Origin: a candidate division WOR-3 bacterium UBA6260
Lineage (GTDB): Bacteria; Hydrothermota; 32-111
NCBI GenBank assembly: GCA_002441125.1
Contig: DJVI01000028.1
Location: forward strand, 35,377-99,376
Direction: 5' to 3'
Length of the DNA: 64,000 nt
The notes beneath the pieces are model-generated. The model saw only the letters and a program-made list of their open reading frames with translations, made no database searches and was not told where the DNA came from. A program made the translations under genes and the position numbers. Positions 13,933 to 50,135 of the stretch are shown piece after piece. How positions within the stretch are numbered: the stretch's first letter is position 1; the number at the start of each line of letters is the position of its first letter.

Positions 13933-13978
13933 TCTTTGAAAAGATTTTATATCAAATTTATAAAAAATGTCAATACTT

Positions 13979-15187: not shown

Positions 15188-15254
15188 AAAAACTCCTTTT
15201 TTTGAATTTATAAAATATCATATTAAAAATTAAAGTCAAGAGTTTAAAAACTTG

Positions 15255-15282: not shown

Positions 15283-15291
15283 TCTTAAATT

Positions 15292-17476: not shown

Positions 17477-17530
17477 AAGCCCACCTTTTTAATAATAAAT
17501 ATTTTATCATAAAAAATTACACATTCAAGA

Positions 17531-17605
17531 TGGCGCCCGAAGGGAATCGAACCCCCAACCTCTTGATCCGTAGTCAAGTGCTCTATCCAATTGAGCTACG
17601 GGCGC
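17531..17605 (-). tRNA. tRNA-Arg (anticodon ACG), with CCA encoded
   Basis: Reverse complement: GCGCCCGTAGCTCAATTGGATAGAGCACTTGACTACGGATCAAGAGGTTGGGGGTTCGATTCCCTTCGGGCGCCA. Confidence 0.85.
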
Positions 17606-17614
17606 GCAATTTTA

Positions 17615-18268
17615 TTATATACTTTCCTCTTTGGAATTCAATTCGAACTCATGCCTTATTGAAAAACCTATAAATAATTTTTTCGCTTGATCAGAGAATG
17701 GATATGTTACATCTATCTGGAAAGATTTTGGGATAAAAATGTTAACAAAAAAATCTGGAACTTTATGTTTGAAAAGGTCTCCCCTTTCAATATCAAGAGT
17801 CAAAAATAACTCGTTTTTTATCTTCTCTGTAAAATGAAGATAAGTTGAAAGACCCGTTGTGAAAGATATGTTTCTGTTTATGTGGTAACTCATTATTCCC
17901 GAGAATATCGGATAAACTAAAACATTTGAGACATTAGTGTAAAGATCTGTTTGGAGAGCAAACCTTAAAGGAATTTTAAAATCTGGAGAGTATTTGAGAC
18001 CAAAACCCGCAGAATTACTCTGGTATCCAACTATAAGGTCAAGATATTGTGCAAGTCCATAGTTGAAAGAAAAACCCCAATAACCTTTACTCTCTTTCAA
18101 AGAATCAGCCAAGTTTTTATCCTTTTCAGAAAAATATCCGGCATAGGCAAGATTGTATTGAAAATGAATATTACCGGTGTAGACAGGATCAGCAATCTGG
18201 TTTGATGGAAAAAGTTTAACAATAAAAAGAAAAAGGAAAATTAAAAAAAGTTTGAGATTCTTTTTCAT
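17615..18268 (-). CDS. Secreted protein, possibly a small beta-barrel outer-membrane protein
   Basis: Signal peptide MKKNLKLFLIFLFLFIVKLF. Rich in aromatics with an alternating pattern. No assignable family. Confidence 0.35.
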   Translation of the reverse strand: MKKNLKLFLIFLFLFIVKLFPSNQIADPVYTGNIHFQYNLAYAGYFSEKDKNLADSLKESKGYWGFSFNYGLAQYLDLIVGYQSNSAGFGLKYSPDFKIPLRFALQTDLYTNVSNVLVYPIFSGIMSYHINRNISFTTGLSTYLHFTEKIKNELFLTLDIERGDLFKHKVPDFFVNIFIPKSFQIDVTYPFSDQAKKLFIGFSIRHEFELNSKEESI

Positions 18269-18288
18269 AAAAAACCCCTTTAATTGAT

Positions 18289-19365
18289 TTATAAAAATTT
18301 TTCTAATATTTTTGAAATCCTTTCAGATGTTTTTCCATCCCAATATTTGATTCTATTACATCTCACTCTCTCAGAAATCCTGAAAATCTTTTCAACATTT
18401 TCAATATCAGGTTCCAAAAGAGTATTGGTTCCTTCTGTAACTGTAACAGGTCTTTCAGTGTTCTTTCTCAATGTAAAACAAGGTATATTAAGAAATGTAG
18501 TTTCCTCCTGAATACCACCAGAATCGGTTAAAACGAATTTTGAGTTCATCTCTAAAGCAACAGATTTAAGATATGAGACTGGTTTTACAACATATATTTT
18601 TTCTGAAATATATCTTTTTAAATTGAAAAGTTCTATCATTTTCTCTGTTCTTGGATGAAGTGGAAATATCACAGGGTAATCTTTTGAAAGAGTGTTAACA
18701 AAATTCAAAATTTTTATAAACCTTTTTCTGTCATCAACATTTGAAGGTCTGTGTAATGTTAGATAGATGAAATTTTTTCTTTTAACGGAAAATTCCCTAC
18801 ATATATCGATACTTTTTATTTTATCAAAATTTTCTTTTAAAGTATCAATCATTATGTTCCCTACAAGAAAAATATTTTCCTTCTCCCTGCCCTCTTTTAA
18901 AAGGTTTGAAATAGCATCTGATGATGGGGCGAAAAGAAAATCTGAAAGAGAATCTGTAACAATTCTATTTATCTCTTCAGGCATACTTTTATCAAAACTC
19001 CTTAAACCTGCCTCAACATGTGCAACTTTCAAATAGAGTTTTTTCGCCGCAATCGTAGCTGCCATAGTTGAGTTGACATCTCCAAAAACAACACAAAGGT
19101 TAGGTTTTCTTTTCAAAAGTAGTCTCTCATACTCAACCATTATCTTAGATGTTTGGTAAGCATGTGTTCCACTTTTAACATCAAAAGAATACTCTGGTCT
19201 TGGAATTGAAAGATCCTTAAAGAATATATCTGACATCTCCTTTGTGTAATGCTGACCTGTGTGTATCAACCTAACATTAAACTTTTCTCTTAAAATTCTG
19301 TTAAGTTTTACAACTTTTATAAAATTTGGTCTTGCTCCTATTATAAGGTCAACAGTTTTTTTCAT
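18289..19365 (-). CDS. wecB: UDP-N-acetylglucosamine 2-epimerase (non-hydrolysing)
   Basis: IIGARPNFIKVVKL...HVEAGLRSFD...HRPSNVDD...LTDSGGIQEE match the WecB/MnaA signatures. Confidence 0.88.
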   Translation of the reverse strand: MKKTVDLIIGARPNFIKVVKLNRILREKFNVRLIHTGQHYTKEMSDIFFKDLSIPRPEYSFDVKSGTHAYQTSKIMVEYERLLLKRKPNLCVVFGDVNSTMAATIAAKKLYLKVAHVEAGLRSFDKSMPEEINRIVTDSLSDFLFAPSSDAISNLLKEGREKENIFLVGNIMIDTLKENFDKIKSIDICREFSVKRKNFIYLTLHRPSNVDDRKRFIKILNFVNTLSKDYPVIFPLHPRTEKMIELFNLKRYISEKIYVVKPVSYLKSVALEMNSKFVLTDSGGIQEETTFLNIPCFTLRKNTERPVTVTEGTNTLLEPDIENVEKIFRISERVRCNRIKYWDGKTSERISKILEKFL

Positions 19366-37702: not shown

Positions 37703-38162
37703 TTTTTTCTCCTTTATTCAAAAGTGAATTTAATTCATCTATAAACTCGTTCATATCTTTGAACTGCCTGTAAACGGATGCGAACCTTACATAGGAAATC
37801 TCATCAACCTCTTTTAAATGTTCCATAACAATCTCTCCGATAACCTTTGACTCAACCTCATCAGATTCTTTTGCAAAAAGTTTTCTTTCAACATCTTCAA
37901 CTATTCTGTTTATTATTTCATTCGAGACAGGCCTTTTCCTACAAGCTGTTCTTATACCTTCAATAAGTTTATCCCTCGCATAAGGTTCCCTTCTACCATC
38001 CCTTTTTATAACAAGGAGAGGTGTTTTTTCAACATACTCATATGTTGTGAACCTTTTTTTACATTGAAGGCACTCTCTTCTTCTTCTAACACTTTGCCCA
38101 TCTTTACTTGCCCTCGAATCTATAACTCTATTTTCTTCAAAACCACAGTATGGACATTTCAT
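37644..38162 (-). CDS. nrdR: Transcriptional repressor NrdR (with a Lys-rich C-terminal extension)
   Basis: MKCPYCGFEENRVIDSRASKDGQSVRRRRECLQCKKRFTTYEYVE: zinc ribbon plus ATP-cone. The 3' end overlaps purC by 59 nt. Confidence 0.9.
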   Translation of the reverse strand: MKCPYCGFEENRVIDSRASKDGQSVRRRRECLQCKKRFTTYEYVEKTPLLVIKRDGRREPYARDKLIEGIRTACRKRPVSNEIINRIVEDVERKLFAKESDEVESKVIGEIVMEHLKEVDEISYVRFASVYRQFKDMNEFIDELNSLLNKGEKNGSKGNKHKRIKDDFKGKS

Positions 38163-38644
38163 ATCTTTTTCATCTTTTTTGATGCGTCAAGGATTATCGT
38201 GTTTGAACAACTAACCAAATTCCCATTTTCATCTTTCCCATAATATGTCTCATAAATCCTTGCTAAAGGGTAATTACCTGTTGTGAAAAGTGCATTTTCT
38301 TCTTTTATGTAACTACCACCTTCAACATTTAAAGTTCCAAACCAATTTCTGACTTCACTTTCATCATAGTAATAGGTTTCTATTATGTTACCATTAACTA
38401 TAATCTGTCCATAACAACAACATCCATTTGGTCCATAGTTTCCGAGAGCCACAGAAATGTTATTCTTTTCTCTTATAATTACATCAGAGTAAAAGGACCA
38501 ACCATTGTTGGCATCATAATAAGCATCTGTAACAGGATTTGGATTAAAGGTAAGTTCAAGTTCAGCAATTTTAGGCACAGGAAGTAAGACACAGGATGAA
38601 AAAAATAAAACAAATAATACCAATAAAAACAGGGATTTTTTCAT
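38159..38644 (-). CDS. Lipoprotein of unknown function
   Basis: Signal peptide with lipobox (LVLFVLFFSSC). 161 aa. Contains GPNGCCCYGQ. AAAGGAG RBS. Confidence 0.5.
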   Translation of the reverse strand: MKKSLFLLVLFVLFFSSCVLLPVPKIAELELTFNPNPVTDAYYDANNGWSFYSDVIIREKNNISVALGNYGPNGCCCYGQIIVNGNIIETYYYDESEVRNWFGTLNVEGGSYIKEENALFTTGNYPLARIYETYYGKDENGNLVSCSNTIILDASKKMKKI

Positions 38645-38655: not shown

Positions 38656-38682
38656 TATAAAAAGGGGGAAAATCCCCCTTTA
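38656..38682 (-). terminator. Rho-independent terminator after the aldehyde dehydrogenase gene
   Basis: On the minus strand: TAA-AGGGGG-ATTTT-CCCCCTT-TTTAT. A 7-bp GC-rich stem (38662-38668 / 38674-38680) followed by a T-run. It overlaps the stop codon. Confidence 0.5.
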
Positions 38683-40188: not shown

Positions 40189-41103
40189 CTATTTTAATAT
40201 TTTTTCAAGTTCTAAATCTGAAGGGTATCTCTCTTCAAAAAGTGTAACTACTTCAGATTCATAATTTATTATCCTTCCAAAATCATCCACAAAAAGGGTC
40301 AATTTATCAAAACTTGAAAGTTCTCCATATCCTTTCATAATAATTGTATGATTTAAAGGTGTTTCGATAGCATTTCTTAAACCAATCCCATCGAATCCAC
40401 CAAGCATAATATCTATTCCTTCAACATTTTCCGCAATTATCCTATCATGTTCAAGACCAACGGATGTAAGACCTATTATAATTGAACATCTGTTTTTTTT
40501 CAATATATCAACAACCTCTTTAGTTTTCTCAATCTCTTTTTCAATAATGTAATATTTAGCTACCTCTTCATCCATATTCAATGTAGCATACTCTGAAACT
40601 AACCCAAAAATTCCAATTCTGATACCTTCCTTTTCCATTATAACATATTTTTGTGGTTGTATCTGGGAATCAACTATCTTCAGGTTAGATGATATCAGTT
40701 TTGGATTAAACAAATTAAAGGCTTCATTTAAAAATTTAGGACCAGCGATTATTTCATCAACACCTATATTTACAACATCGTAACCCATATAATTAAAGTA
40801 TAGGGAAGGTTTAGTAAAATCTGTTGAATCTAAATCTACAGATTTGTAAACAAAATTCCCAGAATCAAAGAGGAGAAATATCTGATTCTTTTTGTTAGCT
40901 AGCTCCCTTTCATATTTTACAGCTGTTGAAAGTGAATATATCCCACCAAGAACAGGTGGAAACTCAGGGTTTATAAATGTAGCTTCCCTTCTTTCAAGTA
41001 CATTCCTTATATCGTTCGTGTGTAATATAACTATCTCTTTTGAAAAAAGGGAAATAACAGTAAGAAAAAATGATAAGAAGAAAAAATTTTTTTTCATTTT
41101 CAC
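40189..41103 (-). CDS. Secreted 5'-nucleotidase-like (calcineurin-fold) protein with degenerate metal/catalytic motifs, probably non-catalytic
   Basis: Signal peptide. ILHTNDIRN replaces ILHTNDHHG. FDSGNF replaces LDAGD. GVDEII replaces GNHEFD. GGFDG replaces GGHSH. There is no C-terminal nucleotide-binding domain (304 aa). Confidence 0.55.
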   Translation of the reverse strand: MKMKKNFFFLSFFLTVISLFSKEIVILHTNDIRNVLERREATFINPEFPPVLGGIYSLSTAVKYERELANKKNQIFLLFDSGNFVYKSVDLDSTDFTKPSLYFNYMGYDVVNIGVDEIIAGPKFLNEAFNLFNPKLISSNLKIVDSQIQPQKYVIMEKEGIRIGIFGLVSEYATLNMDEEVAKYYIIEKEIEKTKEVVDILKKNRCSIIIGLTSVGLEHDRIIAENVEGIDIMLGGFDGIGLRNAIETPLNHTIIMKGYGELSSFDKLTLFVDDFGRIINYESEVVTLFEERYPSDLELEKILK

Positions 41104-41106
41104 CTC

Positions 41107-41676
41107 TTAGAAAACTGTTATTCTGTCAACAGATTTTTCAAGAATCTTTGTGAAATAACTTTCATAGATTTTACCTAAAGTATCCGATTTAATCAGAACT
41201 GAAGCTTCATTGTTTTTATCAAGAGCATGGTAACTCCAGTTCGTTGAACCAACTATTACAAAGATAGAATCAATTATCATCGTTTTTGCATGAAGGGTTG
41301 CTTCAGGATCATCATAGAAAACCTTAACTCCTCCACTTTTCAAAAAATCTCCAAGATCTTTATTCCTCGTGCTCTGATTTGGATTGAAACCTGACTGATC
41401 TAGAACTATTTTAACATCAACTCCCCTTTTTACAGCATCGAAAAGGGATTCATAAATTTTCTGGTTCACTCCATCCTTTCTTTCAGGATAGTAACCACCT
41501 TCAAGCATCATTATGTGAATAGTTTTAGATGAATTTTTTATAAGTTTTATAAGATTTTTTGAATACTCTCTGTTATTCATTGTAATAGCACCATCAGCCT
41601 GAAGAAAATTTAAACTGTCTGAAAAAATAAGTTTGAAAGTTAACAAAAATATAATTAGAAAAAATTGTTTTTTCAT
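41107..41676 (-). CDS. Secreted PLD-family protein with a single HKD motif (Nuc-like nuclease or phospholipase fold)
   Basis: Signal peptide. LHAKTMIIDSIFVIVGSTNWS matches HxKx4Dx6GSxN. 189 aa. Confidence 0.75.
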   Translation of the reverse strand: MKKQFFLIIFLLTFKLIFSDSLNFLQADGAITMNNREYSKNLIKLIKNSSKTIHIMMLEGGYYPERKDGVNQKIYESLFDAVKRGVDVKIVLDQSGFNPNQSTRNKDLGDFLKSGGVKVFYDDPEATLHAKTMIIDSIFVIVGSTNWSYHALDKNNEASVLIKSDTLGKIYESYFTKILEKSVDRITVF

Positions 41677-41684: not shown

Positions 41685-42260
41685 CTAAGGTGTAATTGTT
41701 AAAGTATCTGATCTGAACTCATAAATCTTTTCAAAAAAATCCTCATACTTTAAAGATATATCTTTTGATTTCAAAGCTACCGCACATTCATCATTTTTTG
41801 CAAGAGCATAGAAACTCCAGTTTGTTGAACCAACAACCGTTATAGAAGAATCTATAACTATAAATTTCGCATGGGTTGTTATGTCTGGCATATCAAAGTA
41901 AACCTCAACACCAAATTTTCTCATATATTGTGCATACTCGTTATTTTTTACCGAAAGGGATGGATTCCATGATGACTGGTCAACAATTAAAACAACCTTC
42001 ACACCTCTTTTTACAGCATCAATCAAAGAGTTCTGAAGTTCAGTAGGTTCCCCTTCTGGATAATCCGGATAATAGCCAACCTGATAGATAACAGCATGAA
42101 TAGTTTTTTGTGCATTGTTAAAAAGTTTTATCAGAGTTGGAGTGTAATCCCTGTTGTTCATAGGGATTACTCCATCAACTGGAAGTAAATTTATCTTTTC
42201 TTGGGAGATTAAAAACAGAAAGAATATAAAAACGAATAAAGTTAAAAATATCTTTTTCAT
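41685..42260 (-). CDS. Secreted PLD-family single-HKD protein (paralogue of 41107-41676)
   Basis: Start at MKKIFLTLFVFIFFLF (AGGAG RBS 5 nt upstream). THAKFIVIDSSITVVGSTNWS. Same length and layout as its neighbour. Confidence 0.75.
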   Translation of the reverse strand: MKKIFLTLFVFIFFLFLISQEKINLLPVDGVIPMNNRDYTPTLIKLFNNAQKTIHAVIYQVGYYPDYPEGEPTELQNSLIDAVKRGVKVVLIVDQSSWNPSLSVKNNEYAQYMRKFGVEVYFDMPDITTHAKFIVIDSSITVVGSTNWSFYALAKNDECAVALKSKDISLKYEDFFEKIYEFRSDTLTITP

Positions 42261-42267: not shown

Positions 42268-43428
42268 CTAAAATTTAACTGAAACATCACCAACAAATTT
42301 TAAAACTCTGTCAGTATAGTAAACATCTTCCTTCTCATAGTTAACATTCTTATAGTTTAAGGCAAGTGTAAAATCTGTCATACCGATTTTGTAAGTTAAA
42401 CCTGTTGTAAAACCTATATCAACCAATCTGTTGTCCTTCCTGTAAGGTTCATACATAAAACCATACATCATATCTATATTTTTATTCAGTTGATGTAAAA
42501 CTCCTATGTTGTATTTTATAAGATCATTGTAATCTATAAATTGACCGTTTAATTCACTCCACCTTTCATAAGTTATTGAAGAATAGAATACGGCAGGTGC
42601 AACATTTTTAGCCCTGTATTCCAAACCAAATGAGAATATGTCTGGAATTATGTAATAAACGGTTTCAGTCAAAAGGTTGGTGTCAGAAGCTATAACATCG
42701 GTGACCCTGTTAACTGTAATGTATGTTCTGATATTGTAAACGAAAGAAAGTTTAAGATCATCTTTATAATTATATGAAAGGCCAAAATTACCTCTTATCC
42801 CAGAATAATTCTCTTTCGCTGAAGAAGTTGAGTCTGTGTATGAAGGATCAACGAAAAGTTTTGAGTAATCATCTGAACCATCACCCTGCATAATCGAAAA
42901 GTTTGTTCCAAGGGTAAAACCCAAAATCTTGTAATTCAAGCTCAAAAAATATGTGTTCACATTCCCAATCCTAATCTGACTCTCATCGTATAAAAGAACA
43001 TAGTTATCGTTTCTATATATCTGTCTGTATGTATAATCGTTGTTTATATAATTTTCATAACCTATGTATAAACCAAAATCAGATATTGGCATATAACCTA
43101 AAATGTATGCAGGTTCACCATAAAGGAAACTGTTATCGTAAACATTCTTTTTGGCAACACTGTTTTCATAGGAATCAAAAATATATTTTGATCTCGTTTC
43201 TCTGGTCTGGAGTCCATAGAATCCGAGTGAAACAAAATAGTTTTGGGTTTTACATTCAACGGTTGGGTTTAAAAGTGGGTTGAAAAAGAAATCGTTGTTA
43301 CCTAATGCAGCACCCTTACTGAAAAGTGATGTGTTAAAATCACCAAGTCCAGTTCTATAAAGTGAAGTGTAAGGGAAAAGAGTTAAAGAGAAAAGAAAGA
43401 TTAAAATAATATAAAAAAACTTTTTCAT
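42268..43428 (-). CDS. Predicted beta-barrel outer-membrane protein
   Basis: Signal peptide MKKFFYIILIFLFSLTLF. Alternating aromatic/hydrophilic pattern. C-terminal ...VSVKF (terminal Phe). Confidence 0.5.
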   Translation of the reverse strand: MKKFFYIILIFLFSLTLFPYTSLYRTGLGDFNTSLFSKGAALGNNDFFFNPLLNPTVECKTQNYFVSLGFYGLQTRETRSKYIFDSYENSVAKKNVYDNSFLYGEPAYILGYMPISDFGLYIGYENYINNDYTYRQIYRNDNYVLLYDESQIRIGNVNTYFLSLNYKILGFTLGTNFSIMQGDGSDDYSKLFVDPSYTDSTSSAKENYSGIRGNFGLSYNYKDDLKLSFVYNIRTYITVNRVTDVIASDTNLLTETVYYIIPDIFSFGLEYRAKNVAPAVFYSSITYERWSELNGQFIDYNDLIKYNIGVLHQLNKNIDMMYGFMYEPYRKDNRLVDIGFTTGLTYKIGMTDFTLALNYKNVNYEKEDVYYTDRVLKFVGDVSVKF

Positions 43429-43436: not shown

Positions 43437-45857
43437 CTACCATCTGATATCTATCTGACAAGATAAACCAATAAGGTTTTTGTATTCATCAAAATCTGAT
43501 ATAACCTGAAAATCTGAATCTATGTAACGGTATTTGTTATTATAAACAGATATACCTGAAAATGTAGTTTCCTGATTTTTTAAGGATAGTTTCATCCTCA
43601 TAGAAAGAAGATCAGATATCCTATCAACAAAACTCAAGTACATCTTATCACCTTTTCCATAAAGGAAATCTATCCCATTATCCTCAAGTATCCATTGACT
43701 CATACCGTTAGTATTCCATGTCGCAAAACCACCAAGAACGGAAAAGAAATCGGTTATCCTCTTTTCATAGGAGAGGTTTACAAAAGAACCATCTATGAAA
43801 TTATTATCCGTGTTTCCTCCTGTTGTTAATTTAACCATTCCATACCTTGCTTCAAAATTAAGATAATCGTTGTTGGAAAGAACGGTGAATATCCTCAAAG
43901 TTGTTTCGTTAGTTACAGAGTTTGTTGAAACAATATTTTTATAAATGTTCTTTTCCTGTATTTTGTATTTTAACCTTATCCTAACAGGGAAAACAGGTCT
44001 TAACTCTATTTCGCTCTGGAATCTATAGTTAAGAAGGTTATAATCGAGAGTTCTCCAAATATCAAGGTATGTGTAGTTTAGTGTTAAATTTGATAAAATC
44101 CTATACCTTGTTTCAAGATATATACCCTCCTCAGGTCTTGGCCTTGGGTCATCGAGAATGTATGTGAAAAGCGGATCTATAAGTCTATAGGTTTTTTCAA
44201 ACTCCGTATCATCATATCTTGACTGCTCATAGAAAGGTCTCGAATAAAAATTTGTGTAACCAACATCGTACCTTCTTAAAAGACCTACAAAATAAAAATC
44301 ACTGTAAACCAATCCGCTTTTTATAACATAAGCTTTACTTTTATCCTGTAAAGCGAACTCCCCTTGTAAAAATAGATTTTTGTAAGCAGTTTGGAAATTA
44401 AATCCGTAAACATTCAACCTATCATTTTTAAATTCGTTAAGGTAAACAGGTATTTTCAGGTTGTCTTTATCGAAAGGTATATCCAAATTTAAACTATCCT
44501 GTTTGAAATCTTTGTCAAATAAAGAGTTGAAACCTGAAAATCCGATTTGTGTCACAAGTGGAAGGTTAAGGATCCCACCTATATTTAAAGCTACTTTCCC
44601 ACCTAAAGTTTTTTCACCATAAACATCTGTAAACTGATCTATATAAGTTTTTGTTAAAAGTGGTAGATTTACGGTTGAATCCCTGTTTAAAATTCCATCC
44701 CTTTTCATCTGAGACAAAAATAAAAGGTAGTATAATCTTTTAACATTTCCTTCCAAAGCTATACCGAAAAGGTTGTTTGCAAAAGATTCATTTAAATCAA
44801 CGAAAAGCCCGGAACTCCTGTCATATGTTCTTGAGCTCTTCTCATCAGTATTATCGAATATTAAACCTTCATTCAGAGTTACCCTATAATTCCCAAATAT
44901 CAAATTTTTTATAAAAGGTATATCTCTTACCTGAAAATATCCTTTAATATTTCTTTCTCCGATTGTTGAATAATCTGAAAACAATGTCCCAAAAGAAAGA
45001 TTGTTCCCAACATTCAGGATTATTTTGTTGTAAAGGTTTGAACCTATCTTTCTTTTCTGTAACTGCGAGTACTCACTTTCAATTCTACTTTTCAAAGAAT
45101 CAACTTCCTCTGAAGTGTAACCTGCCTTTAAAAGAGTATTCCTCAAATTTACCGAATCAGGATTTACTACCTCAAGTTGACTCAACCTGTATGATAGTTC
45201 ATTAGCGAGAGCAGAAAATGATGAGTATCCATAAGTATCATCGTTGGAATATTTCATCTTCGTTCTTATATAACCTGAGAGGTCAAAAAAACTTCTCTTT
45301 TCATCTTTGAAGGAAATATAGTTTTTCAAATTGGAATAGGCATAATAGGTCAGATTAGGTGTTCTTCTAAGATCTGTAAGGTATCTGTATGTTCTTGATT
45401 TTTTCCCCTGCATTATAGCTTCAACATCAGTTAACCTTACTCCATATATCTGTAAAAGTTCTTCAAAGCCAACCCTGTTAACATTGAGTTTCTCAACAAG
45501 CAGCCTTTCCCATAGATCTATAGCACCTCTTGAAGGGTTTTCCTCTCCAGCCAACCTGTCTTGAATTCTTAGGATGTAAATTGAGGTTGAATCTATAGTA
45601 GTGTCAGGTTTTATCATAATCTTTTCTTTCAATATTGAAAAGATCTCATAATCAACACCTTCTATATTCATAAGTTCATATATAGATTTAATCTCTCCAT
45701 GATTTTTTATATAAACTTTGATGTTGTTTATAACTTCATCAGGGATAAAGAGAGTATCAAGTGCAGATGGGTCTTGATTGTTTATATCTATCTTATCCTG
45801 AGAGAAAGTTATAGAAAAGATGACAAGGATTAAAAGAAAAATATATATCCTTTTCAT
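43437..45857 (-). CDS. Large outer-membrane protein with N-terminal ComEA-like helix-hairpin-helix modules and a C-terminal beta-barrel-like region
   Basis: Signal peptide. INNQDPSALDTLFIPDEVINNIKVYIKNHGEIKSIYELMNIEGVDYEIFSILKEKI follows the ComEA HhH pattern (IN..s...L..LPGIG...A..I..YR..nG.F.S.EEL..V.GIG.K.fe.lk). A second weaker copy reads VGFEELLQIYGVRLTDVEAI. The ~650-aa remainder is Y/N/S-rich and ends ...IDIRW. Confidence 0.5.
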   Translation of the reverse strand: MKRIYIFLLILVIFSITFSQDKIDINNQDPSALDTLFIPDEVINNIKVYIKNHGEIKSIYELMNIEGVDYEIFSILKEKIMIKPDTTIDSTSIYILRIQDRLAGEENPSRGAIDLWERLLVEKLNVNRVGFEELLQIYGVRLTDVEAIMQGKKSRTYRYLTDLRRTPNLTYYAYSNLKNYISFKDEKRSFFDLSGYIRTKMKYSNDDTYGYSSFSALANELSYRLSQLEVVNPDSVNLRNTLLKAGYTSEEVDSLKSRIESEYSQLQKRKIGSNLYNKIILNVGNNLSFGTLFSDYSTIGERNIKGYFQVRDIPFIKNLIFGNYRVTLNEGLIFDNTDEKSSRTYDRSSGLFVDLNESFANNLFGIALEGNVKRLYYLLFLSQMKRDGILNRDSTVNLPLLTKTYIDQFTDVYGEKTLGGKVALNIGGILNLPLVTQIGFSGFNSLFDKDFKQDSLNLDIPFDKDNLKIPVYLNEFKNDRLNVYGFNFQTAYKNLFLQGEFALQDKSKAYVIKSGLVYSDFYFVGLLRRYDVGYTNFYSRPFYEQSRYDDTEFEKTYRLIDPLFTYILDDPRPRPEEGIYLETRYRILSNLTLNYTYLDIWRTLDYNLLNYRFQSEIELRPVFPVRIRLKYKIQEKNIYKNIVSTNSVTNETTLRIFTVLSNNDYLNFEARYGMVKLTTGGNTDNNFIDGSFVNLSYEKRITDFFSVLGGFATWNTNGMSQWILEDNGIDFLYGKGDKMYLSFVDRISDLLSMRMKLSLKNQETTFSGISVYNNKYRYIDSDFQVISDFDEYKNLIGLSCQIDIRW

Positions 45858-45866: not shown

Positions 45867-46745
45867 CTAAAAGGAATAGGACAGCTGGATATGGTTTCTT
45901 GAAGGAAGGTTAACAACTGTTGTGTAACCATAATCTATAGATAGATTTTTTATTTTCATTTCAAATCCTATTCCAAGATTTGTTGGATAACTTCTTACTC
46001 CGGAATATATTGTGAACAGATTCTTTATTAACTGGTATTTCAATGAAAAACCGAAAGAAGTAGGTTCACCACTGACTTTTGAAATATCAAAATTTGTGGT
46101 CAAACTCTCATAAGGTAAGTAAGTCAAACCAGCAGAGACCTTTCTTGTTATATAGTATCTTTGGTTACTCATAGCACCAACAATATATGTGTCTGTGAAA
46201 TTCGAAACCGCAAGCCCAATAAACCATCTATCATAAACTTTACCTATCATTCCTAAATCAGCTGTATAGAATATATTGTTGTTAGCATCAACACCTTCCA
46301 TCTTCTGTTCGATAAAAAGAAAGTTCAAATTTGTTCCAAAAAATATTAGATCGTTGAATCCAAGACCGTATGTTAACTGGACAACTCTTTCTGTCTGCAA
46401 TCTCGTGTTAGTACTTAATAAAGAGTCACCGTTTGAATAATCACCGATTACGAAAAGTTCAGAATACTTTAAACCAATGTTACCATAATCTGAAAAGTAT
46501 CCTCCCGATAGAGAAGCAGCATGTATGAACCTGTAAAGATTCTCATAAGAAACTGATACCTGATATTTATCAAGCCCCATTATAGACGCTGGATTTACTG
46601 TGATATTATCTATTCCAGAGATCATACCGGTTGTTGCGTAGGCCATACTTTTTGTCTGAACATTACCGGGTATATATTCGAAAGCAGCATAAGAATAGAT
46701 AAAAGTCAAAAAAGAAATTATGAAAATTAAAATAATCTTCTTCAT
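45867..46745 (-). CDS. Beta-barrel outer-membrane protein, PorP/SprF-like (tentative)
   Basis: Signal peptide. N-terminal GIDNITVNPASIMGLDKYQVSVSYEN resembles the PorP/SprF NPAxxG...YRxQW start. C-terminal ...LSYSF. Sits immediately downstream of a T9SS-CTD cargo gene. Confidence 0.4.
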   Translation of the reverse strand: MKKIILIFIISFLTFIYSYAAFEYIPGNVQTKSMAYATTGMISGIDNITVNPASIMGLDKYQVSVSYENLYRFIHAASLSGGYFSDYGNIGLKYSELFVIGDYSNGDSLLSTNTRLQTERVVQLTYGLGFNDLIFFGTNLNFLFIEQKMEGVDANNNIFYTADLGMIGKVYDRWFIGLAVSNFTDTYIVGAMSNQRYYITRKVSAGLTYLPYESLTTNFDISKVSGEPTSFGFSLKYQLIKNLFTIYSGVRSYPTNLGIGFEMKIKNLSIDYGYTTVVNLPSRNHIQLSYSF

Positions 46746-46756: not shown

Positions 46757-48730
46757 TCATTTTAATTTTGTTGATATAACAACAGGTTTTGTTATAGAAT
46801 AACTGTAACCTTTACTATCTATCTTGGTTACATTTAAAATATAGATGCCCAAATTACATAATGCACCATTTTTATCCTTACCATCCCAAAGGTATATACC
46901 TGAACCAGGTTGGTTTTCACCTATAGTTTTTATATGTTTTCCATTTATATCGTAAATCTTCAATGTGAACCTTTCATCATTCAAACCTTTCACCTCTATC
47001 CTTAAAACCTGTCCATAATCTGGTGAAAATGGATTCGGGAAAAGTGAAACGGAAGATGTTGAATCTTCAGGTAAACTCAAAATATTTATATCAGATTTTT
47101 TCCTAACCTGTAATTGATAGCCTGATGTATATGGTGATTGACTGTCATATTGGCCACCTATTCCAATAACATCAACTATCTTACCGGGAACTATAGAACC
47201 CATTATTTCATCTTCATAAAGACCTGTTGATTTGTTTATTCTAACATCTATAACAGAGTATCCATTCTGAATCTGGAAATTTTTACCTGTTCCCGCATCG
47301 ACAGGATATGTTAAAATCTTACCATAAACTACTTTCAAAAGTTTTCCTTCAACAAGCTCCGATATACCCTGAGAGTTTTTAAGTTCTTCTGGTTGTACAT
47401 AAGCGAAAGTATCATTTAAAATGTAAACATCGGTATCGGGTGATGAGTACTTTATCTCAGTTAAACCGTTATACTCTGTAACAACTCCCCTGACCATCAC
47501 CTCAACACCTTCTTTGAATTTTTGATTCGCAGGATCTGATGATGAGTATATATCAACACCACCAGTTTTATCCTGAATGAAAAATCCTGTCGATGTTGCG
47601 GTCGGAGAAAAAATACTCGATGATCCTATAACAACTCCTTTAACTGAAACAACCTGATTAACATACTTTGAATTGTAACCATCATTTGTAGATTGAACTT
47701 CAGAGATATCCATAAGGTTTGAAAAAGGTGTTTTCTTCATTATGAAAAATGGTGAAACAGGTAAAAGTTGTGTTTGGCTAACACCGGTATAAAGTTTCAC
47801 AGTATCACTGTTTGTGAAGTAATAATTTTTAACATAAATTTTTATAGAGTCCTTGAAAATAATATTGTTTATATTAACTGTTGTTGTAGTTGATGTTGTA
47901 TCTATTGTTATCTTAGAAGAGTCAAACAAGATAAAGGATGAGTCACAAAGAACCTTTATTGAATCTTTTAACAACTTTTTGTTAAAAACGAGTTTTAAAT
48001 ACTTAATGGTTCCATATATAGTGTCAACATTTGGAATAAGATCAACCCTTATATCGTTATAGGATGAATCGTTGAAAAATTTAGGATTAACATTTACCAA
48101 ACCACTACCATCAATAGTTTTTAAAACATCATCGTTACCATAAGGTTTTAACTCATATTTCCCGTTGTATTCATCCATACAACCTCTTATGAAAATAAAA
48201 GTATCGTTGAGAGCTTCAACAGTTACAGGGTAAGAATTATCTTCATAGATTATCATAGGCCCAGACCCATCATCGACTTGCCATTCCCTTGCTGATGTTA
48301 TCTGTGTAACAGCGCAATTTTCAACCTGTATAAACATACCTTCATACTTTTCTTTCCCAGCATCACCTGTTTTCACAATAACTGGACCTGGGACTTTTAC
48401 ACCCTTTGCAAGAACTGTTAGAGTTGTTGGGTTTGATATTTCAGTTTTTCCATTATATTCTACAACCTGACCAGTAACAATTATAGAATCACCAACTTCA
48501 ACAGGTGTTGGAGGATTGTAAACTAATATTCCGTGCCAAGGTAAAGTATCATCCTGAATGTAAACATTAACACCGAAAACTCTTGTAACTATTCCAGAGA
48601 TTGTAACGGTTTGTCCAGCATAAGGTGATGCTCCTGAAATATTTTCAGTGTATTGAACATCATAAATTGTAAGCCCAAATGAAACTATAAAAAGAGAAAC
48701 TACTGAAAAGAATAAGAATAGATATTTCAT
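46757..48730 (-). CDS. Secreted multi-domain protein with two OB-fold-like repeats and a T9SS type-A C-terminal sorting domain
   Basis: Signal peptide. Repeat 1: IYDVQYTENISGASPYAGQTVTISGIVTRVFGVNVYIQDD...GILVYN...VGDSIIVTGQVVEYNGKTEI. Repeat 2: ISEVQSTNDGYNSKYVNQVVSVKGVVIG...GFFIQDKTGGVDIYSS...GVEVMVRGVVTEYNGLTEI. The C-terminus SLFPNPFSPDYGQVLRIEVKGLNDERFTLKIYDINGKHIKTIGENQPGSGIYLWDGKDKNGALCNLGIYILNVTKID...KPVVISTKLK fits the Por_Secre_tail / TIGR04183 pattern. Confidence 0.6.
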   Translation of the reverse strand: MKYLFLFFSVVSLFIVSFGLTIYDVQYTENISGASPYAGQTVTISGIVTRVFGVNVYIQDDTLPWHGILVYNPPTPVEVGDSIIVTGQVVEYNGKTEISNPTTLTVLAKGVKVPGPVIVKTGDAGKEKYEGMFIQVENCAVTQITSAREWQVDDGSGPMIIYEDNSYPVTVEALNDTFIFIRGCMDEYNGKYELKPYGNDDVLKTIDGSGLVNVNPKFFNDSSYNDIRVDLIPNVDTIYGTIKYLKLVFNKKLLKDSIKVLCDSSFILFDSSKITIDTTSTTTTVNINNIIFKDSIKIYVKNYYFTNSDTVKLYTGVSQTQLLPVSPFFIMKKTPFSNLMDISEVQSTNDGYNSKYVNQVVSVKGVVIGSSSIFSPTATSTGFFIQDKTGGVDIYSSSDPANQKFKEGVEVMVRGVVTEYNGLTEIKYSSPDTDVYILNDTFAYVQPEELKNSQGISELVEGKLLKVVYGKILTYPVDAGTGKNFQIQNGYSVIDVRINKSTGLYEDEIMGSIVPGKIVDVIGIGGQYDSQSPYTSGYQLQVRKKSDINILSLPEDSTSSVSLFPNPFSPDYGQVLRIEVKGLNDERFTLKIYDINGKHIKTIGENQPGSGIYLWDGKDKNGALCNLGIYILNVTKIDSKGYSYSITKPVVISTKLK

Positions 48731-48731
48731 T

Positions 48732-50135
48732 TTACCTCCTGAGAGTCCCTTTCCTCTTTGAGGAAGGGAGAATATTTAAATTTTCTCTGTATTTAGCAAC
48801 CGTTCTTCTTGCAATTTTAATAGAATATTTTTCTTCAAGTATTTTAACAAGATCTAAATCTGAGTAAGGATTGTTTGGGTCCTCTTTTTCAATCTCCTCT
48901 TTGATTATATTCATAATATTCTTGTTTGAAACCTCAAAACCTGAATTGTTTTTAACTCCTTTTGAAAAGAAAAATTTTAAAGGAAAAATACCTGAAGGAG
49001 TATCCATATATTTATTCTCTATAGCTCTTGAAACTGTTGCTTCATGCATTCCTATATGACCTGCTATATCGCTTAAAGTTAAAGGTTTCAACGAAGAGAT
49101 ACCGTTAAAGAAAAAATCTTTTTGAACAGCGATAATTCTTTCAGATATCTTTAAAAGTGTATTGTTCCTTCTATATATCCCTTCTAAAAGGAATAACGCC
49201 GCATTGAATTTATTTTTTAAAAATCTTTTTTCTTCCTGTGAAAGGTTTTCTTTGTTTTTGTACATATCAAAATAACTTTTGCTAAGATGAACTTCCGGAA
49301 ATGATTGAAGGTTCAAAGATACATAAAGTTCTTCTCCCCTCTGCTCTACAATAACATCTGGTATTATGTAATCAGTACTCTTCCCCCAAACCCCATTAGC
49401 AGGCTTTGGATTTAGACTTTTTATTGACTCTAAAGCTTTTTCAAGTTTACTTCTTGTTATTTTGAGTTTATTTTCTATTATATACAATTTGTTTGTTAAA
49501 AACTCCTCATAGAACTCTTTTATAATTCTGTATTCCAATGTTTCTTCTTTCTTTTGGTTTTCGAGTTGGGTAAGTAAAACTTCTTGAACACTCCTGCTTC
49601 CTATTCCAACAGGTTCAAAAAACTTGTACTTTGAGTGAACATACTCAACCTTTTCAAGCGGAAGTTTTAGATTCTCAGCTAATTCAGACAAAGAGATTTC
49701 CAAAAGTCCATCATCGGAAAGTGAAAAAGTTATCTCTTCTGCAATTTTTATCTCATCTGGATCATCGAAAAAAATATGTGATTGTGTCAGAAGATAATCT
49801 TGCAAATTTTCAGGCTCCTCAACATTCGAAATCGGATCGAACTCTTCATCCTCTCTGTTATACCTCTCAGATGGCAGAGAAGCTTTTTTCCACTCATCAT
49901 GAAAAAAATACTCATAATCTATCTCATCCTTTAAAGGGAGCTCAGGTTCAACCTCCTCATAGGAGACATCTTCCTCCTCAAGTATATCATCAGTTAAAAA
50001 CGGATTCTGTTCTATTTCATTTGTTATAACCTGTTGTAATTCAAGTAATGGCAGTTGCAATATCTTTACAAGAGTTAGAAGTTGAGGGGTTAATTTAATC
50101 TCCTGTCTTAAAGAGGTTTCAAGTTTTTGTTTCAT
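48732..50135 (-). CDS. rpoN: RNA polymerase sigma-54 factor
   Basis: N-terminal Gln/Leu-rich activator-interaction region (LTPQLLTLVKILQLPLLELQQ). C-terminal RpoN box ARRTVAKYRE. Confidence 0.92.
   Translation of the reverse strand: MKQKLETSLRQEIKLTPQLLTLVKILQLPLLELQQVITNEIEQNPFLTDDILEEEDVSYEEVEPELPLKDEIDYEYFFHDEWKKASLPSERYNREDEEFDPISNVEEPENLQDYLLTQSHIFFDDPDEIKIAEEITFSLSDDGLLEISLSELAENLKLPLEKVEYVHSKYKFFEPVGIGSRSVQEVLLTQLENQKKEETLEYRIIKEFYEEFLTNKLYIIENKLKITRSKLEKALESIKSLNPKPANGVWGKSTDYIIPDVIVEQRGEELYVSLNLQSFPEVHLSKSYFDMYKNKENLSQEEKRFLKNKFNAALFLLEGIYRRNNTLLKISERIIAVQKDFFFNGISSLKPLTLSDIAGHIGMHEATVSRAIENKYMDTPSGIFPLKFFFSKGVKNNSGFEVSNKNIMNIIKEEIEKEDPNNPYSDLDLVKILEEKYSIKIARRTVAKYRENLNILPSSKRKGTLRR

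What the first reader, a model, noticed from the sequence alone, without database searches (positions are those of the whole stretch)
43437..45857. Outer-membrane beta-barrel-like protein with N-terminal ComEA-type helix-hairpin-helix DNA-binding modules
Residues ~25-80 follow the ComEA HhH pattern closely (IPDEVINNIKVYIKNHGEIKSIYELMNIEGVDYEIFSILKEKI). A second, weaker HhH-like stretch follows. The remaining ~650 aa have the composition and C-terminal aromatic residue (W) of a large barrel. Known ComEA proteins are periplasmic or membrane-anchored DNA receptors. I am not aware of an HhH module fused to a barrel-type OMP. It would place a DNA-binding domain at the cell surface or in the periplasm attached to an OM channel.
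Basis: partly seen in the sequence, partly recalled or inferred. Interest (0 to 1): 0.65.

Follow-up and report, generated by a model that had tools for sequence, protein, structure and literature searches.

The report
Outer-membrane barrel with fused ComEA modules
An uncultured WOR-3/TA06 bacterium encodes a large outer-membrane barrel fused to two ComEA-like DNA-binding modules, inside a conserved gene cassette with a surface DNA-binding protein, nucleases and a nucleotidase, so it probably belongs to an uncharacterised machine for capturing and importing extracellular DNA.

Summary
ORF 43437-45857 (-) encodes an 806-aa secreted protein with two tandem ComEA-type HHH_3 modules (res ~20-84 and ~122-188). 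A high-confidence AlphaFold model (pLDDT 89) shows a C-terminal outer-membrane beta-barrel, about 24 strands, ending in Trp. Strand parity and the indel pattern place the HhH modules in the periplasm.

The family has 83 representatives at E<1e-30. All come from uncultured FCB-superphylum lineages (WOR-3, TA06, Fermentibacteria, Krumholzibacteria, Gemmatimonadota, Cloacimonadota and others). It has no Pfam or NCBIfam model for the barrel and no close solved structure.

The gene sits in a cassette conserved across phyla: a DUF5689/OB-fold protein with a T9SS-type tail, a PorV/PorP-like barrel, the HhH-barrel, a FadL-like barrel, then a 5'-nucleotidase and/or nucleases. Housekeeping flanks are not conserved.

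DUF5689 proteins paired with an outer-membrane barrel and nucleases define the recently described Bacteroidota Ddb DNA-utilisation loci and the Riemerella transformation system, where the HhH protein is separate and the barrel is a TonB-dependent transporter. Here the barrel is of a different kind and the HhH is fused to it.

Best reading: the outer-membrane conduit or dock of an extracellular-DNA acquisition system. This is a new variant of a known kind, and its function is inferred, not shown.

The parts
45798..45857 (-). Signal peptide of the HhH-barrel protein (res 1-20, MKRIYIFLLILVIFSITFSQ). It has no lipobox Cys, so it is type I.
   Evidence: Sequence. Helix 2-18 in the model.
45606..45800 (-). 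ComEA-type HHH_3 module 1 (res 20-84). It is acidic: net charge -5 in the window, family median -3.
   Evidence: Pfam HHH_3 E 6.8e-6. All 9 orthologues hit, best E 1.2e-16. EEPD1 tandem-HhH match. Charge.
45495..45605 (-). Two-helix linker between the HhH modules (res 85-121, conserved RLASEExP..GAIDxWE). EEPD1 has the same spacing between its two modules.
45294..45494 (-). ComEA-type HHH_3 module 2 (res 122-188). It is basic: +5 in the window, family median +2. It has conserved Arg164 and Arg165.
   Evidence: ComEA 8dfk match at 124-187, E 1.9e-4. HHH_3 E 0.014 on its own. hhalign against module 1 gives 98.7%.
43440..45281 (-). Outer-membrane beta-barrel (res 193-806), about 24 wall strands, ending in the beta-signal ...QIDIRW. 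Its lumen-facing residues are net basic, with a conserved ladder of R626, R628, K630, K632 and K636.
   Evidence: AF2 model pLDDT 89.3. Foldseek hits are all OM barrels. Topology and indels. Lumen charge.
45042..45245 (-). Three-helix insertion between strands 1 and 2 (res 205-272). By parity it is extracellular loop 1. It is variable and partly deleted in other family members.
44133..44267 (-). The longest of the highly conserved segments in the family (res 531-575, ..YDNPYSRPFSEQSRYDDTEFEKTYRLIDP..DDPRPKPEEG). By parity it is extracellular loop 7, and it is a candidate lumen constriction or gate.
   Evidence: Among the lowest column entropies of all segments (1.76; only b14 at 1.66 and conn21 at 1.74 are lower). 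Alignment.
43656..43709 (-). Conserved loop hairpin GMSQWIxEDxGIDFLYG (res 717-734), the family signature used for the genome scan.
46757..48730 (-). Cassette partner 1: a 657-aa secreted protein with two OB-fold nucleic-acid-binding modules (DUF5689 family, resembling the ExeM/NucH N-terminus) and a T9SS-type C-terminal domain. It has no nuclease domain. It is the proposed surface DNA receptor.
   Evidence: Pfam tRNA_anti-codon, FlgD_ig and weak DUF5689. NCBIfam ExeM/NucH N-terminus, E 6e-16. PDB: EEP nuclease 9sf9 N-terminus E 6e-9 and PorU CTD 6za2 E 1e-4. hhalign to an orthologue that passes the DUF5689 gathering score: 99.8%.
45867..46745 (-). Cassette partner 2: a 292-aa PorV/PorQ/PorP-like (FadL-superfamily) small OM barrel. 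It is the proposed anchor for the T9SS-tailed OB protein.
   Evidence: NCBIfam PorV_fam E 3.5e-7. PorV 6h3i_F E 7e-4. The orthologue hits PorP_SprF. Present upstream in 57/60 distant loci.
42268..43428 (-). Cassette partner 3: a 386-aa FadL/TodX-family OM barrel (start taken at MKKFF).
   Evidence: Profile against PDB: 9hjm_F E 8e-10, TbuX 3bry E 1.4e-9, TodX 3brz E 2.8e-9. Toluene_X in 4 of 13 members. Present downstream in 40/61 distant loci.
41685..42260 (-). Secreted single-HKD PLD-family (Nuc/NucT-like) nuclease 1, with an intact HxK(x)4D..GSxN motif.
   Evidence: PLDc_2 E 1.5e-23. NucT and DrmC similarity. Motif read from the sequence.
41107..41676 (-). Secreted single-HKD PLD-family (Nuc/NucT-like) nuclease 2, with an intact motif.
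   Evidence: PLDc_2 E 3.1e-24.. Sequence.
40189..41103 (-). 5'-nucleotidase-like protein, truncated to 304 aa. Metal-ligand residues are lost in motifs II-V and partly in motif I (its Asp is kept). It is a conserved pseudo-enzyme. Distant loci carry the full-length, active-looking 5'-nucleotidase at this position.
   Evidence: NCBIfam UshA-like hits. Alignment with intact orthologues. Pfam Metallophos + 5_nucleotid_C in orthologues.
38665..38678 (-). The only convincing terminator-like hairpin downstream of the cassette. It lies after the aldehyde dehydrogenase gene, which is not part of the conserved cassette.

Best explanation
The protein is the outer-membrane core of an extracellular nucleic-acid acquisition machine found in uncultured FCB-superphylum bacteria. 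The proposed mechanism follows; the evidence section marks which steps are shown and which are inferred.

1. A surface-displayed DUF5689/OB-fold protein captures extracellular DNA. It carries a T9SS-type C-terminal domain and is held at the surface by the adjacent PorV/PorP-like barrel.
2. DNA, or large fragments of it, enters the ~24-strand barrel, whose lumen wall is net basic. Conserved long extracellular loops probably gate the pore.
3. At the periplasmic mouth, the two covalently tethered ComEA-type HhH modules bind the incoming polymer and prevent back-sliding. The basic module 2 is the more likely DNA binder. This would be a ComEA-style ratchet that needs neither TonB nor a pilus.
4. 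Signal-peptide-bearing nucleases, here two Nuc-type PLD enzymes, degrade the DNA, and in most lineages a 5'-nucleotidase completes the breakdown to nucleosides and phosphate. The FadL-like barrel serves an accessory transport or anchoring role.

The primary purpose is most likely nutrient (P, N, nucleoside) scavenging. Delivery to a ComEC-type importer for transformation is not excluded.
For: Shown by computation.
- Architecture: signal peptide, two HHH_3 modules and an OM barrel.
- Topology: 24 long strands. The even-numbered connections are 2-9 residues and take essentially no insertions, although conn8 (res 426-434) is gapped in about 45% of members. The odd-numbered connections carry all the long loops and nearly all insertions. 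This puts the N-terminal modules on the same side as the C-terminal beta-signal, which is the periplasm.
- Family size: 83 representatives at E<1e-30, and 128 loci among GTDB species genomes.
- Context: excluding the close clade, a PorV-like gene lies upstream in 57/60 loci and an OB-fold gene in 38/45. A FadL-like gene lies downstream in 40/61 and a 5'-nucleotidase in 35/46. The window's housekeeping neighbours recur in 1/68.
- The same cassette occurs in Krumholzibacteria, Gemmatimonadota and other remote lineages. Other nuclease types (Endonuclease_1, MBL-fold, LTD proteins) substitute there.
- The OB partner is DUF5689 family: an orthologue scores 40.1 bits against a gathering score of 28.6, and hhalign to the window's family gives 99.8%.
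- Both PLD nucleases have intact catalytic motifs and signal peptides.
- Lumen-facing strand residues are net basic (family +31/-18), with a conserved five-residue Arg/Lys ladder.

From the literature.
- DUF5689 proteins paired with an OM barrel are essential for Riemerella transformation, together with a separate HhH protein (PMC8459023).
- ComEA acts as a periplasmic DNA-binding ratchet (PMC3879209).

Inferred, not shown: DNA binding by these HhH modules, passage of DNA through this barrel, anchoring of the OB protein by the PorV-like barrel, and the nutritional purpose.
Against: - No experiment exists for any family member, and all carriers are uncultured.
- The HhH hairpins are degenerate. 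The canonical GIG glycines and Lys residues are mostly replaced, module 1 is acidic, and the window's own HHH_3 score is just under Pfam's threshold.
- I could not inspect the model's coordinates. Pore diameter, possible plugging by loops, and the position of the HhH modules relative to the barrel are therefore unknown. The strand count and topology come from the DSSP string plus indel patterns.
- DSSP lists 25 strand elements plus a short hairpin at 721-732. I count 24 wall strands by treating that hairpin as part of a loop.
- Charged barrel lumens are common and not specific to DNA.
- The cassette contains two other barrels, either of which could be the real conduit for small products.
- In the window's clade the 5'-nucleotidase is a pseudo-enzyme, and some lineages keep only the OB protein, the PorV-like barrel and the HhH-barrel. 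The degradative part is therefore variable.
- No ComEC, nucleoside transporter or T9SS core gene lies in the 64-kb window.
Confidence: 0.58

Rival explanations
1. It uses the same machinery, but the purpose is natural transformation. The barrel and HhH modules deliver intact DNA to the periplasm for ComEC-dependent import and recombination, as in Riemerella, rather than for food.
For: The Riemerella system (DUF5689 protein, OM barrel and an HhH protein) is essential for transformation (PMC8459023). ComEA-type modules are classically competence proteins (PMC3879209). Some lineages have a cassette without any nuclease or nucleotidase. The Gemmatimonadota locus carries metallo-beta-lactamase-fold proteins and a second HHH_3 protein, which recall ComEC accessory domains.
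Against: A 5'-nucleotidase is the most persistent downstream partner (35/46 distant loci). Nucleases with signal peptides sit in the cassette, which suggests degradation to monomers. No comEC, dprA or comF lies in the window or in the fetched flanks. The two purposes are not mutually exclusive, as PMC12478041 notes for the Ddb and Riemerella systems.
Confidence: 0.2
2. The barrel is not a DNA conduit. It acts as a scaffold or retention device whose periplasmic HhH modules hold oligonucleotides or a nuclease complex near the outer membrane. Small products would enter through the FadL-like or PorV-like barrels or through general porins.
For: The cassette has two further barrels. Long, highly conserved loops could permanently plug the 24-strand lumen. 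Solved 22-26-strand barrels such as ushers, TonB-dependent transporters and MtrB are all plugged or filled (established knowledge, and these are the fold matches). There is no evident energy coupling.
Against: FadL-family channels are known for hydrophobic substrates, not polyanions (established knowledge). Lumen-facing residues of the large barrel are net basic with a conserved Arg/Lys ladder. Fusing a DNA-binding module to a very large barrel is most simply explained if DNA emerges from that barrel.
Confidence: 0.14
3. The HhH modules have lost DNA binding and serve protein-protein or cell-wall contacts. The barrel would then be a generic large porin or secretion-associated protein, for example part of a T9SS cargo-display platform for the OB-fold protein, and the nucleic-acid link would be indirect.
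For: The hairpin motifs are degenerate and module 1 is acidic. The window protein is just below the HHH_3 threshold. The most constant neighbours are T9SS-flavoured: a PorV/PorP-like barrel and a CTD-bearing protein.
Against: Even on this reading, the displayed cargo is an OB-fold/DUF5689 nucleic-acid binder, and nucleases or nucleotidases co-occur across phyla. Module 2 stays basic with conserved arginines. The tandem-HhH unit is the same one found in the nuclease EEPD1 and in ComEA.
Confidence: 0.06
4. The HhH modules are surface-exposed and the protein is an extracellular-DNA adhesin that ties cells to a biofilm matrix.
For: eDNA-binding surface proteins exist in other bacteria (general knowledge).
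Against: Parity of 24 strands, short indel-free turns on the side of the N- and C-termini, and long variable loops on the other side all place the N-terminal modules in the periplasm. No lumen-spanning linker of the autotransporter type is evident between residue 188 and strand 1 at 193.
Confidence: 0.02

Closest known systems
Bacteroidota Ddb DNA-utilisation loci (B. thetaiotaomicron ddbABCDEF; PMC12478041) and the related Riemerella anatipestifer transformation genes RA0C_RS04915, RS04920 and RS02645 (PMC8459023)
   Same: Both are pilus-independent outer-membrane systems for exogenous DNA in the FCB group. Each has a surface DUF5689/OB-fold DNA binder encoded next to an OM barrel, and the partner here is homologous to it. 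Nucleases with signal peptides lie in the locus. An HhH (ComEA-like) protein is involved, and in Riemerella it is essential. The layout resembles a polymer-utilisation locus.
   Different: The barrel here is not a TonB-dependent transporter. It has no Plug, TonB_dep_Rec or CarboxypepD_reg match and no sequence match to solved TonB-dependent transporters. It has about 24 strands rather than 22. The HhH modules are fused to the barrel instead of forming a separate protein. The surface binder has a T9SS-type C-terminal domain and a dedicated PorV/PorP-like barrel rather than a lipoprotein anchor. There is an extra FadL-like barrel and a 5'-nucleotidase. The carriers are uncultured candidate phyla.
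ComEA (periplasmic or membrane-anchored competence DNA receptor; TIGR01259, Pfam HHH_3; PMC3879209, PMC9747964)
   Same: It shares the HHH_3 fold unit. The location is probably periplasmic, and the role is probably binding incoming DNA.
   Different: ComEA is a small protein with one C-terminal HHH_3 domain. This protein has two N-terminal modules with degenerate hairpins, one of them acidic, fused to a 614-aa OM barrel. The score against the ComEA model is 15 bits against a cut-off of 152.
EEPD1-type tandem HhH N-terminal region (PDB 9yi2)
   Same: The two HhH modules and the linker align over residues 15-180 with the same spacing.
   Different: In EEPD1 the tandem HhH is fused to an EEP nuclease domain, not to a membrane barrel.
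Large outer-membrane barrels: chaperone-usher ushers FimD/PapC (24 strands), MtrB (26), TonB-dependent transporters (22)
   Same: These are the best structural matches (E ~1e-7 to 1e-6), of similar size and with a similar strand number.
   Different: TM-scores are only 0.2-0.45. There is no Usher, Plug or TonB_dep_Rec sequence signal, and the accessory domains differ. This is a match of fold class, not of family.

Membership tests
ComEA family (NCBIfam TIGR01259 / Pfam HHH_3) | HHH_3 helix-hairpin-helix domain | tested here: met
   In the window, HHH_3 gives E 6.8e-6 and 26.5 bits against a gathering score of 27, which is marginal. All 9 orthologues match, best E 1.2e-16. The profile hits ComEA 8dfk. 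The second module is related to the first at 98.7%.
ComEA family (NCBIfam TIGR01259 / Pfam HHH_3) | Whole-protein match to the ComEA model, with the small single-domain architecture | tested here: not met
   TIGR01259 scores 15 bits against a cut-off of 152.35. The protein is 806 aa with two N-terminal modules plus a barrel.
ComEA family (NCBIfam TIGR01259 / Pfam HHH_3) | Sequence-independent DNA binding | not testable with these tools
   Only indirect evidence is available. Module 2 is basic (+5) and module 1 is acidic (-5). The hairpin glycines and lysines are mostly replaced.
TonB-dependent transporter (DdbC / RA0C_RS04915 / SusC type) | N-terminal Plug domain and TonB_dep_Rec 22-strand barrel, with or without a CarboxypepD_reg domain | tested here: not met
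   None of these Pfam families matches at E<=1 in the window protein or in any of the 9 orthologues. No solved TonB-dependent transporter appears in the profile-against-PDB sequence search at E<=1. The N-terminus is occupied by HhH modules. About 24 strands are counted. TonB-dependent transporters appear only as low-TM fold-class matches.
Ddb-like DNA-utilisation or uptake locus (system level) | DUF5689 surface DNA-binding protein encoded next to an OM barrel | tested here: met
   In the window, the OB protein hits DUF5689 only weakly, E 0.006. Its Gemmatimonadota orthologue passes the gathering score at 40.1 bits and is homologous at 99.8% by hhalign. The two genes are adjacent in 38/45 distant loci.
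Ddb-like DNA-utilisation or uptake locus (system level) | Secreted or periplasmic nucleases in the locus | tested here: met
   There are two PLD/Nuc-type proteins with signal peptides and intact HKD motifs. Remote loci carry Endonuclease_1, MBL-fold and LTD proteins.
Ddb-like DNA-utilisation or uptake locus (system level) | Transporter is a DdbC-type TonB-dependent transporter | tested here: not met
   See the TonB-dependent transporter row.
Ddb-like DNA-utilisation or uptake locus (system level) | Locus required for depletion or uptake of exogenous DNA | not testable with these tools
   This needs genetics or biochemistry, and the carriers are uncultured.
Chaperone-usher usher (Pfam Usher; FimD/PapC) | Usher barrel with an inserted plug and N- and C-terminal chaperone-binding domains | tested here: not met
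   These are the top Foldseek hits, but with TM 0.25-0.45. There is no Usher, PapC_N or PapC_C Pfam match, and no chaperone or pilin genes lie nearby.
Bacterial outer-membrane beta-barrel protein (BAM substrate) | Signal peptide, an even number of antiparallel amphipathic strands, short periplasmic turns with long external loops, and a C-terminal aromatic beta-signal | tested here: met
   The strand number comes from the DSSP string; the coordinates were not inspected.

The most novel reading that the evidence does not exclude
This family would be a third, independent route for DNA across a Gram-negative outer membrane, after the PilQ secretin with its pilus and the DdbC-type TonB-dependent transporter. 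It would be a TonB- and pilus-independent 24-strand translocon whose own periplasmic tandem ComEA modules act as a built-in ratchet. A T9SS-anchored OB-fold receptor would feed it. The system would be widespread in uncultured FCB phyla, where it could be a major sink for environmental DNA.
Probability: 0.33. Interest if true: 0.85.

Novelty: new variant of a known kind. Interest (0 to 1): 0.62.

Why it matters
How DNA crosses the outer membrane without a type IV pilus and secretin is only beginning to be understood. The Riemerella screen dates from 2021 and the Bacteroides Ddb loci from 2025.

This family suggests that the same logic extends across many uncultured FCB phyla: a surface OB-fold receptor, an outer-membrane barrel, a periplasmic HhH binder and nucleases. 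Here it uses an unrelated barrel and a covalent barrel-ComEA fusion. The fusion acts as a 'Rosetta stone', arguing that the barrel and the HhH binder work together at the periplasmic exit.

- It gives a compact, single-polypeptide model for studying ratchet-driven polymer import without TonB.
- It provides a genomic marker for DNA-foraging or DNA-uptake capacity in sediment, hot-spring and digester communities.
- It helps explain how small-genome candidate phyla obtain phosphorus and nucleosides.

Tried and rejected
- **First AlphaFold run (9 close orthologues).** It gave pLDDT 52 and was discarded. The 58-sequence alignment solved this.
- **Word-indexed homologue search.** Even with the diverse alignment it returned essentially only the close clade. 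The exhaustive profile search was needed.
- **The search for related loci with the 58-sequence alignment.** It failed because no stretch was conserved enough. An intermediate alignment worked.
- **Model coordinates.** They could not be read. Pore size and domain placement were therefore not measured, and I substituted a DSSP and indel parity analysis.
- **Promoter scan.** It was no better than shuffled sequence, 66 sites against 62.4 expected, so no promoter is claimed.
- **Short single-HhH subgroup (about 620-670 aa).** Its context was uninformative on a 7-kb contig.
- **Membership in three families.** I considered and rejected ComEA proper, TonB-dependent transporters and ushers (see the membership table).
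- **Riemerella's HhH protein RS02645.** I considered whether it is a barrel fusion like this one. The paper describes HhH domains and a predicted periplasmic location only, so I treat it as a separate soluble protein.
- **Literature on competence or ComEC in WOR-3.** The search found nothing.
- **Aldehyde dehydrogenase, rpoN and lptB neighbours.** I rejected them as cassette members because they are lost in distant loci (1/68).


Full report
**1. The observation**

ORF 43437..45857 on the minus strand encodes 806 aa. It begins with a type I signal peptide that has no lipobox cysteine. It ends ...LSCQIDIRW, with alternating hydrophobic residues and a terminal Trp, which is the usual outer-membrane beta-signal.

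Pfam places HHH_3 at residues 20-79 (E 6.8e-6, 26.5 bits, half a bit under the gathering score). The NCBIfam ComEA model matches only weakly (15 bits against a cut-off of 152). On one sequence the signal is marginal, but in the family it is robust. All nine close orthologues hit HHH_3, best E 1.2e-16.

- The family profile aligns to B. subtilis ComEA (8dfk) at residues 124-187 (E 1.9e-4).
- It aligns to the tandem HhH region of EEPD1 (9yi2) over residues 15-180, with the same inter-module spacing (E 3.3e-5).
- The isolated module spans the whole HHH_3 profile at E 0.014.
- A profile-profile comparison of module 1 with module 2 gives 98.7% probability.

The hairpins are degenerate, since the canonical G-I-G and Lys residues are mostly replaced. 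Module 1 is acidic (-5; family median -3) and module 2 is basic (+5; median +2).

**2. The barrel**

A model built from nine close sequences was unusable (pLDDT 52). An exhaustive profile search of 1.84 billion representatives found 1116 relatives at E<=1e-3 and 83 at E<=1e-30. Most are 780-860 aa with the same architecture.

With 58 of these as the alignment, the model reached pLDDT 89.3 and pTM 0.84. It shows:
- two helical HhH modules joined by a two-helix linker;
- a first strand at 193-204;
- a three-helix insertion at 205-272;
- long antiparallel strands from there to residue 805.

**3. Topology**

I could not read the coordinates, so I used the DSSP string together with the family alignment. 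I treated the short hairpin at 721-732 as part of a loop, which leaves 24 wall strands.

The even-numbered connections are 2-9 residues long and take essentially no insertions in 58 sequences, although conn8 (res 426-434) is gapped in about 45% of members. The odd-numbered connections hold every long loop (68, 35, 26, 26, 45, 18 and 22 residues) and nearly all insertions. This is the standard pattern of periplasmic turns and external loops. It puts the N-terminal HhH modules on the same side as the C-terminal beta-signal, which is the periplasm. This is an inference, not a measurement.

Unusually for an outer-membrane protein, several external loops are among the most conserved parts of the family: residues 531-575, 717-734 (GMSQWIxEDxGIDFLYG) and 328-362. 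That suggests they line or gate the lumen, or contact partners.

Lumen-facing strand positions are net basic (family average +31.3/-18.5; window +32/-15). Strand 625-638 carries a conserved ladder of R626, R628, K630, K632 and K636. This is compatible with passage of a polyanion, but it is not specific to DNA.

**4. Organism and distribution**

The closest protein (93% identity) is from candidate division TA06 bacterium 32_111, where it is named 'Competence protein ComEA (Modular protein)'. Others come from WOR-3 MAGs.

A scan of GTDB species genomes found 128 loci in WOR-3, TA06, Fermentibacteria/Aegiribacteria/Sabulitectum, Edwardsbacteria, Stahlbacteria and Latescibacterota. Remote representatives come from Cloacimonadota, Krumholzibacteria, Gemmatimonadota, Eisenbacteria and Elusimicrobiota MAGs.

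All carriers are uncultured, and all names are generic. Two variants exist: a shorter subgroup of 620-670 aa with one HhH module, and a 1251-aa form with a TPR extension.

**5. Gene context, the main functional evidence**

In the window the gene lies in a tightly packed minus-strand run with gaps of -29 to 12 nt. In transcription order, the run contains:

| Gene | Description |
|---|---|
| 657-aa protein | Two OB folds and a T9SS-type C-terminal domain |
| 292-aa protein | PorV-like barrel |
| HhH-barrel | The finding |
| 386-aa protein | FadL-like barrel |
| Two PLD proteins | Secreted, Nuc-type, with intact HxK(x)4D..GSxN motifs |
| 304-aa protein | 5'-nucleotidase-like |

Close relatives share the whole region, including lptB, rpoN, an aldehyde dehydrogenase and nrdR. 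That says nothing about function. In distant genomes those housekeeping neighbours disappear (1/68), while the cassette stays in the same order and orientation:

| Partner | Position | Loci with partner / loci with enough flank |
|---|---|---|
| PorV-like barrel | upstream | 57/60 |
| OB-fold protein | upstream | 38/45 |
| FadL-like barrel | downstream | 40/61 |
| 5'-nucleotidase | downstream | 35/46 |

The pattern persists at about 24% identity:
- **Krumholzibacteria:** LTD protein, small barrel, HhH-barrel, 429-aa barrel, 5'-nucleotidase.
- **A JGI contig:** HhH-barrel, Toluene_X protein, 5'-nucleotidase.
- **A Logan contig and the TPR variant:** the same triad, with LTD proteins added in the TPR variant.
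- **A marine Gemmatimonadota contig:** DUF5689/OB/FlgD_ig protein, PorP/SprF-like barrel, HhH-barrel, 460-aa protein, Endonuclease_1, two metallo-beta-lactamase-fold proteins, a second HHH_3 protein and LTD proteins.

The nuclease type changes between lineages while the nucleic-acid theme stays constant. Some WOR-3 and Stahlbacteria lineages keep only the OB/LTD protein, the PorV-like barrel and the HhH-barrel.

**6. The partners**

- **OB protein.** Its N-terminal OB domain matches the N-terminus of solved EEP-family nucleases (9sf9, E 6e-9). Its C-terminus matches the T9SS C-terminal domain of PorU (6za2, E 1e-4). It has no nuclease domain. In the window it hits DUF5689 only weakly. The Gemmatimonadota orthologue passes Pfam's threshold (40.1 bits against 28.6) and is homologous to the window's family at 99.8%.
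- **Small upstream barrel.** It belongs to the PorV/PorQ/PorP (FadL-superfamily) group. In T9SS these barrels bind or anchor CTD-bearing cargo (established knowledge), so I infer that it anchors the OB protein.
- **386-aa protein.** It is FadL/TodX family.
- **5'-nucleotidase.** It is full-length with intact metallophosphoesterase motifs in distant loci. In the window's clade it is truncated: motifs II-V have lost their metal-ligand residues and motif I keeps its Asp but not its second His, yet the protein is conserved. It is a pseudo-enzyme in the same clade that acquired the two PLD nucleases.

**7. Comparison with what is known**

Two papers define the nearest known system. In Riemerella anatipestifer, transformation needs a DUF5689 surface protein, the adjacent outer-membrane barrel (CarboxypepD_reg/TonB-dependent type) and a separate HhH protein. 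It also needs ComEC, DprA, ComF and RecA (PMC8459023).

In B. thetaiotaomicron, ddbABCDEF is required for depletion of exogenous DNA. It encodes nucleases, the TonB-dependent transporter DdbC and the DUF5689 protein DdbD. The authors relate it to the Riemerella system and describe it as PUL-like (PMC12478041).

The cassette here shares the DUF5689 partner by homology, and it shares the overall logic. It differs in several ways:
- The barrel is not a TonB-dependent transporter by any sequence test.
- The HhH binder is fused to the barrel.
- Surface anchoring is T9SS-style rather than by lipoprotein.
- There are extra FadL-like and PorV-like barrels and a nucleotidase.

The fusion of two components that are separate but co-required in Riemerella argues that barrel and HhH binder act at the same place. 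I found no paper describing an HhH-barrel fusion.

**8. Mechanism and confidence**

| Claim | Confidence |
|---|---|
| Architecture | ~0.9 |
| Membership in a nucleic-acid acquisition module | ~0.75 |
| HhH modules are periplasmic | ~0.75 |
| DNA or large fragments pass through this barrel and are held by the HhH modules (ComEA-like ratchet, PMC3879209) | ~0.4-0.5 |
| Best explanation overall | 0.58 |

Nutrition is favoured over transformation because nucleotidases and nucleases are the constant downstream partners. The two purposes are not exclusive, and no comEC or salvage transporter could be examined.

Rivals: a scaffold rather than a conduit, non-DNA-binding HhH modules within a T9SS display platform, and a surface adhesin. 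The last is disfavoured by the topology.

**9. Verdict**

It is best filed as a new variant of the recently recognised outer-membrane DNA-utilisation and uptake systems of the FCB group. It is built on an uncharacterised barrel family with covalently attached ComEA-type modules. Function is inferred from architecture, conserved context and homology of a partner. No experiment exists.

Noticed in passing
window 40189-41103 (-): The cassette's 5'-nucleotidase homologue is truncated to 304 aa. It has no 5_nucleotid_C domain. Metal-ligand residues are lost in motifs II-V (DSGNF, GVDEI, LTSVG, GGFDG) and partly in motif I (HTNDIRN, Asp kept, second His lost). It is still conserved at 48-55% identity within the clade. 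Distant loci carry an intact full-length enzyme. It is a pseudo-enzyme of unknown role, and it coincides with the gain of two PLD nucleases.
   Followed up: yes
window 2567-4672 (-), with 253-1311, 4653-6191, 6257-7021 and 8578-9615: A PilB/MshE-type secretion ATPase (MshEN + T2SSE, E 3e-125) carries a C-terminal response-regulator receiver domain. It sits in a cluster of receiver, HD and histidine-kinase proteins. This may indicate a regulated type IV filament system in this organism, which would be relevant to DNA uptake.
   Followed up: no
L088 (marine Gemmatimonadota contig) 5421-18502: This is an extended 'DNA-processing island'. After the cassette come Endonuclease_1, two metallo-beta-lactamase-fold proteins flanking a 600-aa HHH_3 protein and a DUF3006 protein, then a large LTD/CARDB protein. 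The 600-aa protein matches the barrel family mainly through its HhH region.
   Followed up: partly
L086 9001-12756 (protein P0045, 1251 aa): This family variant has an N-terminal TPR extension of about 430 aa before the HhH modules and the barrel. A CBM_4_9 protein and a faint CarboxypepD_reg protein precede it. The FadL-like barrel, a 5'-nucleotidase and two LTD proteins follow it.
   Followed up: partly
proteins P0124, P0135, P0138-P0142, P0147, P0150, P0153 (620-670 aa); L085: A shorter subgroup has a single HhH module and a barrel that matches well only through the first half, up to the conserved 531-575 region. The one context retrieved was a short contig and was uninformative.
   Followed up: partly
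window 48730-48732 and 38665-38678: The OB-fold gene starts 1 nt after the rpoN stop codon, with no terminator between them. The only convincing terminator lies after the aldehyde dehydrogenase gene. In this clade the cassette may therefore be co-transcribed with lptB-rpoN and ALDH, an arrangement not seen in distant lineages.
   Followed up: partly
L040, L076, L055, L073, L082, L047 (WOR-3 / Stahlbacteria): These loci have a reduced cassette with only the large LTD/OB surface protein, the PorV-like barrel and the HhH-barrel. No FadL-like barrel, nuclease or nucleotidase lies downstream. In these lineages the OB protein is expanded to about 1050-1100 aa, with LTD, Big_5 and fn3 domains and a DUF4131-like (ComEC N-terminal OB) match.
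   Followed up: partly
window 38159-38644 (-): A 161-aa predicted lipoprotein (signal peptide ending ...FFSSC) has no family match. It is conserved next to nrdR in the close clade only.
   Followed up: no
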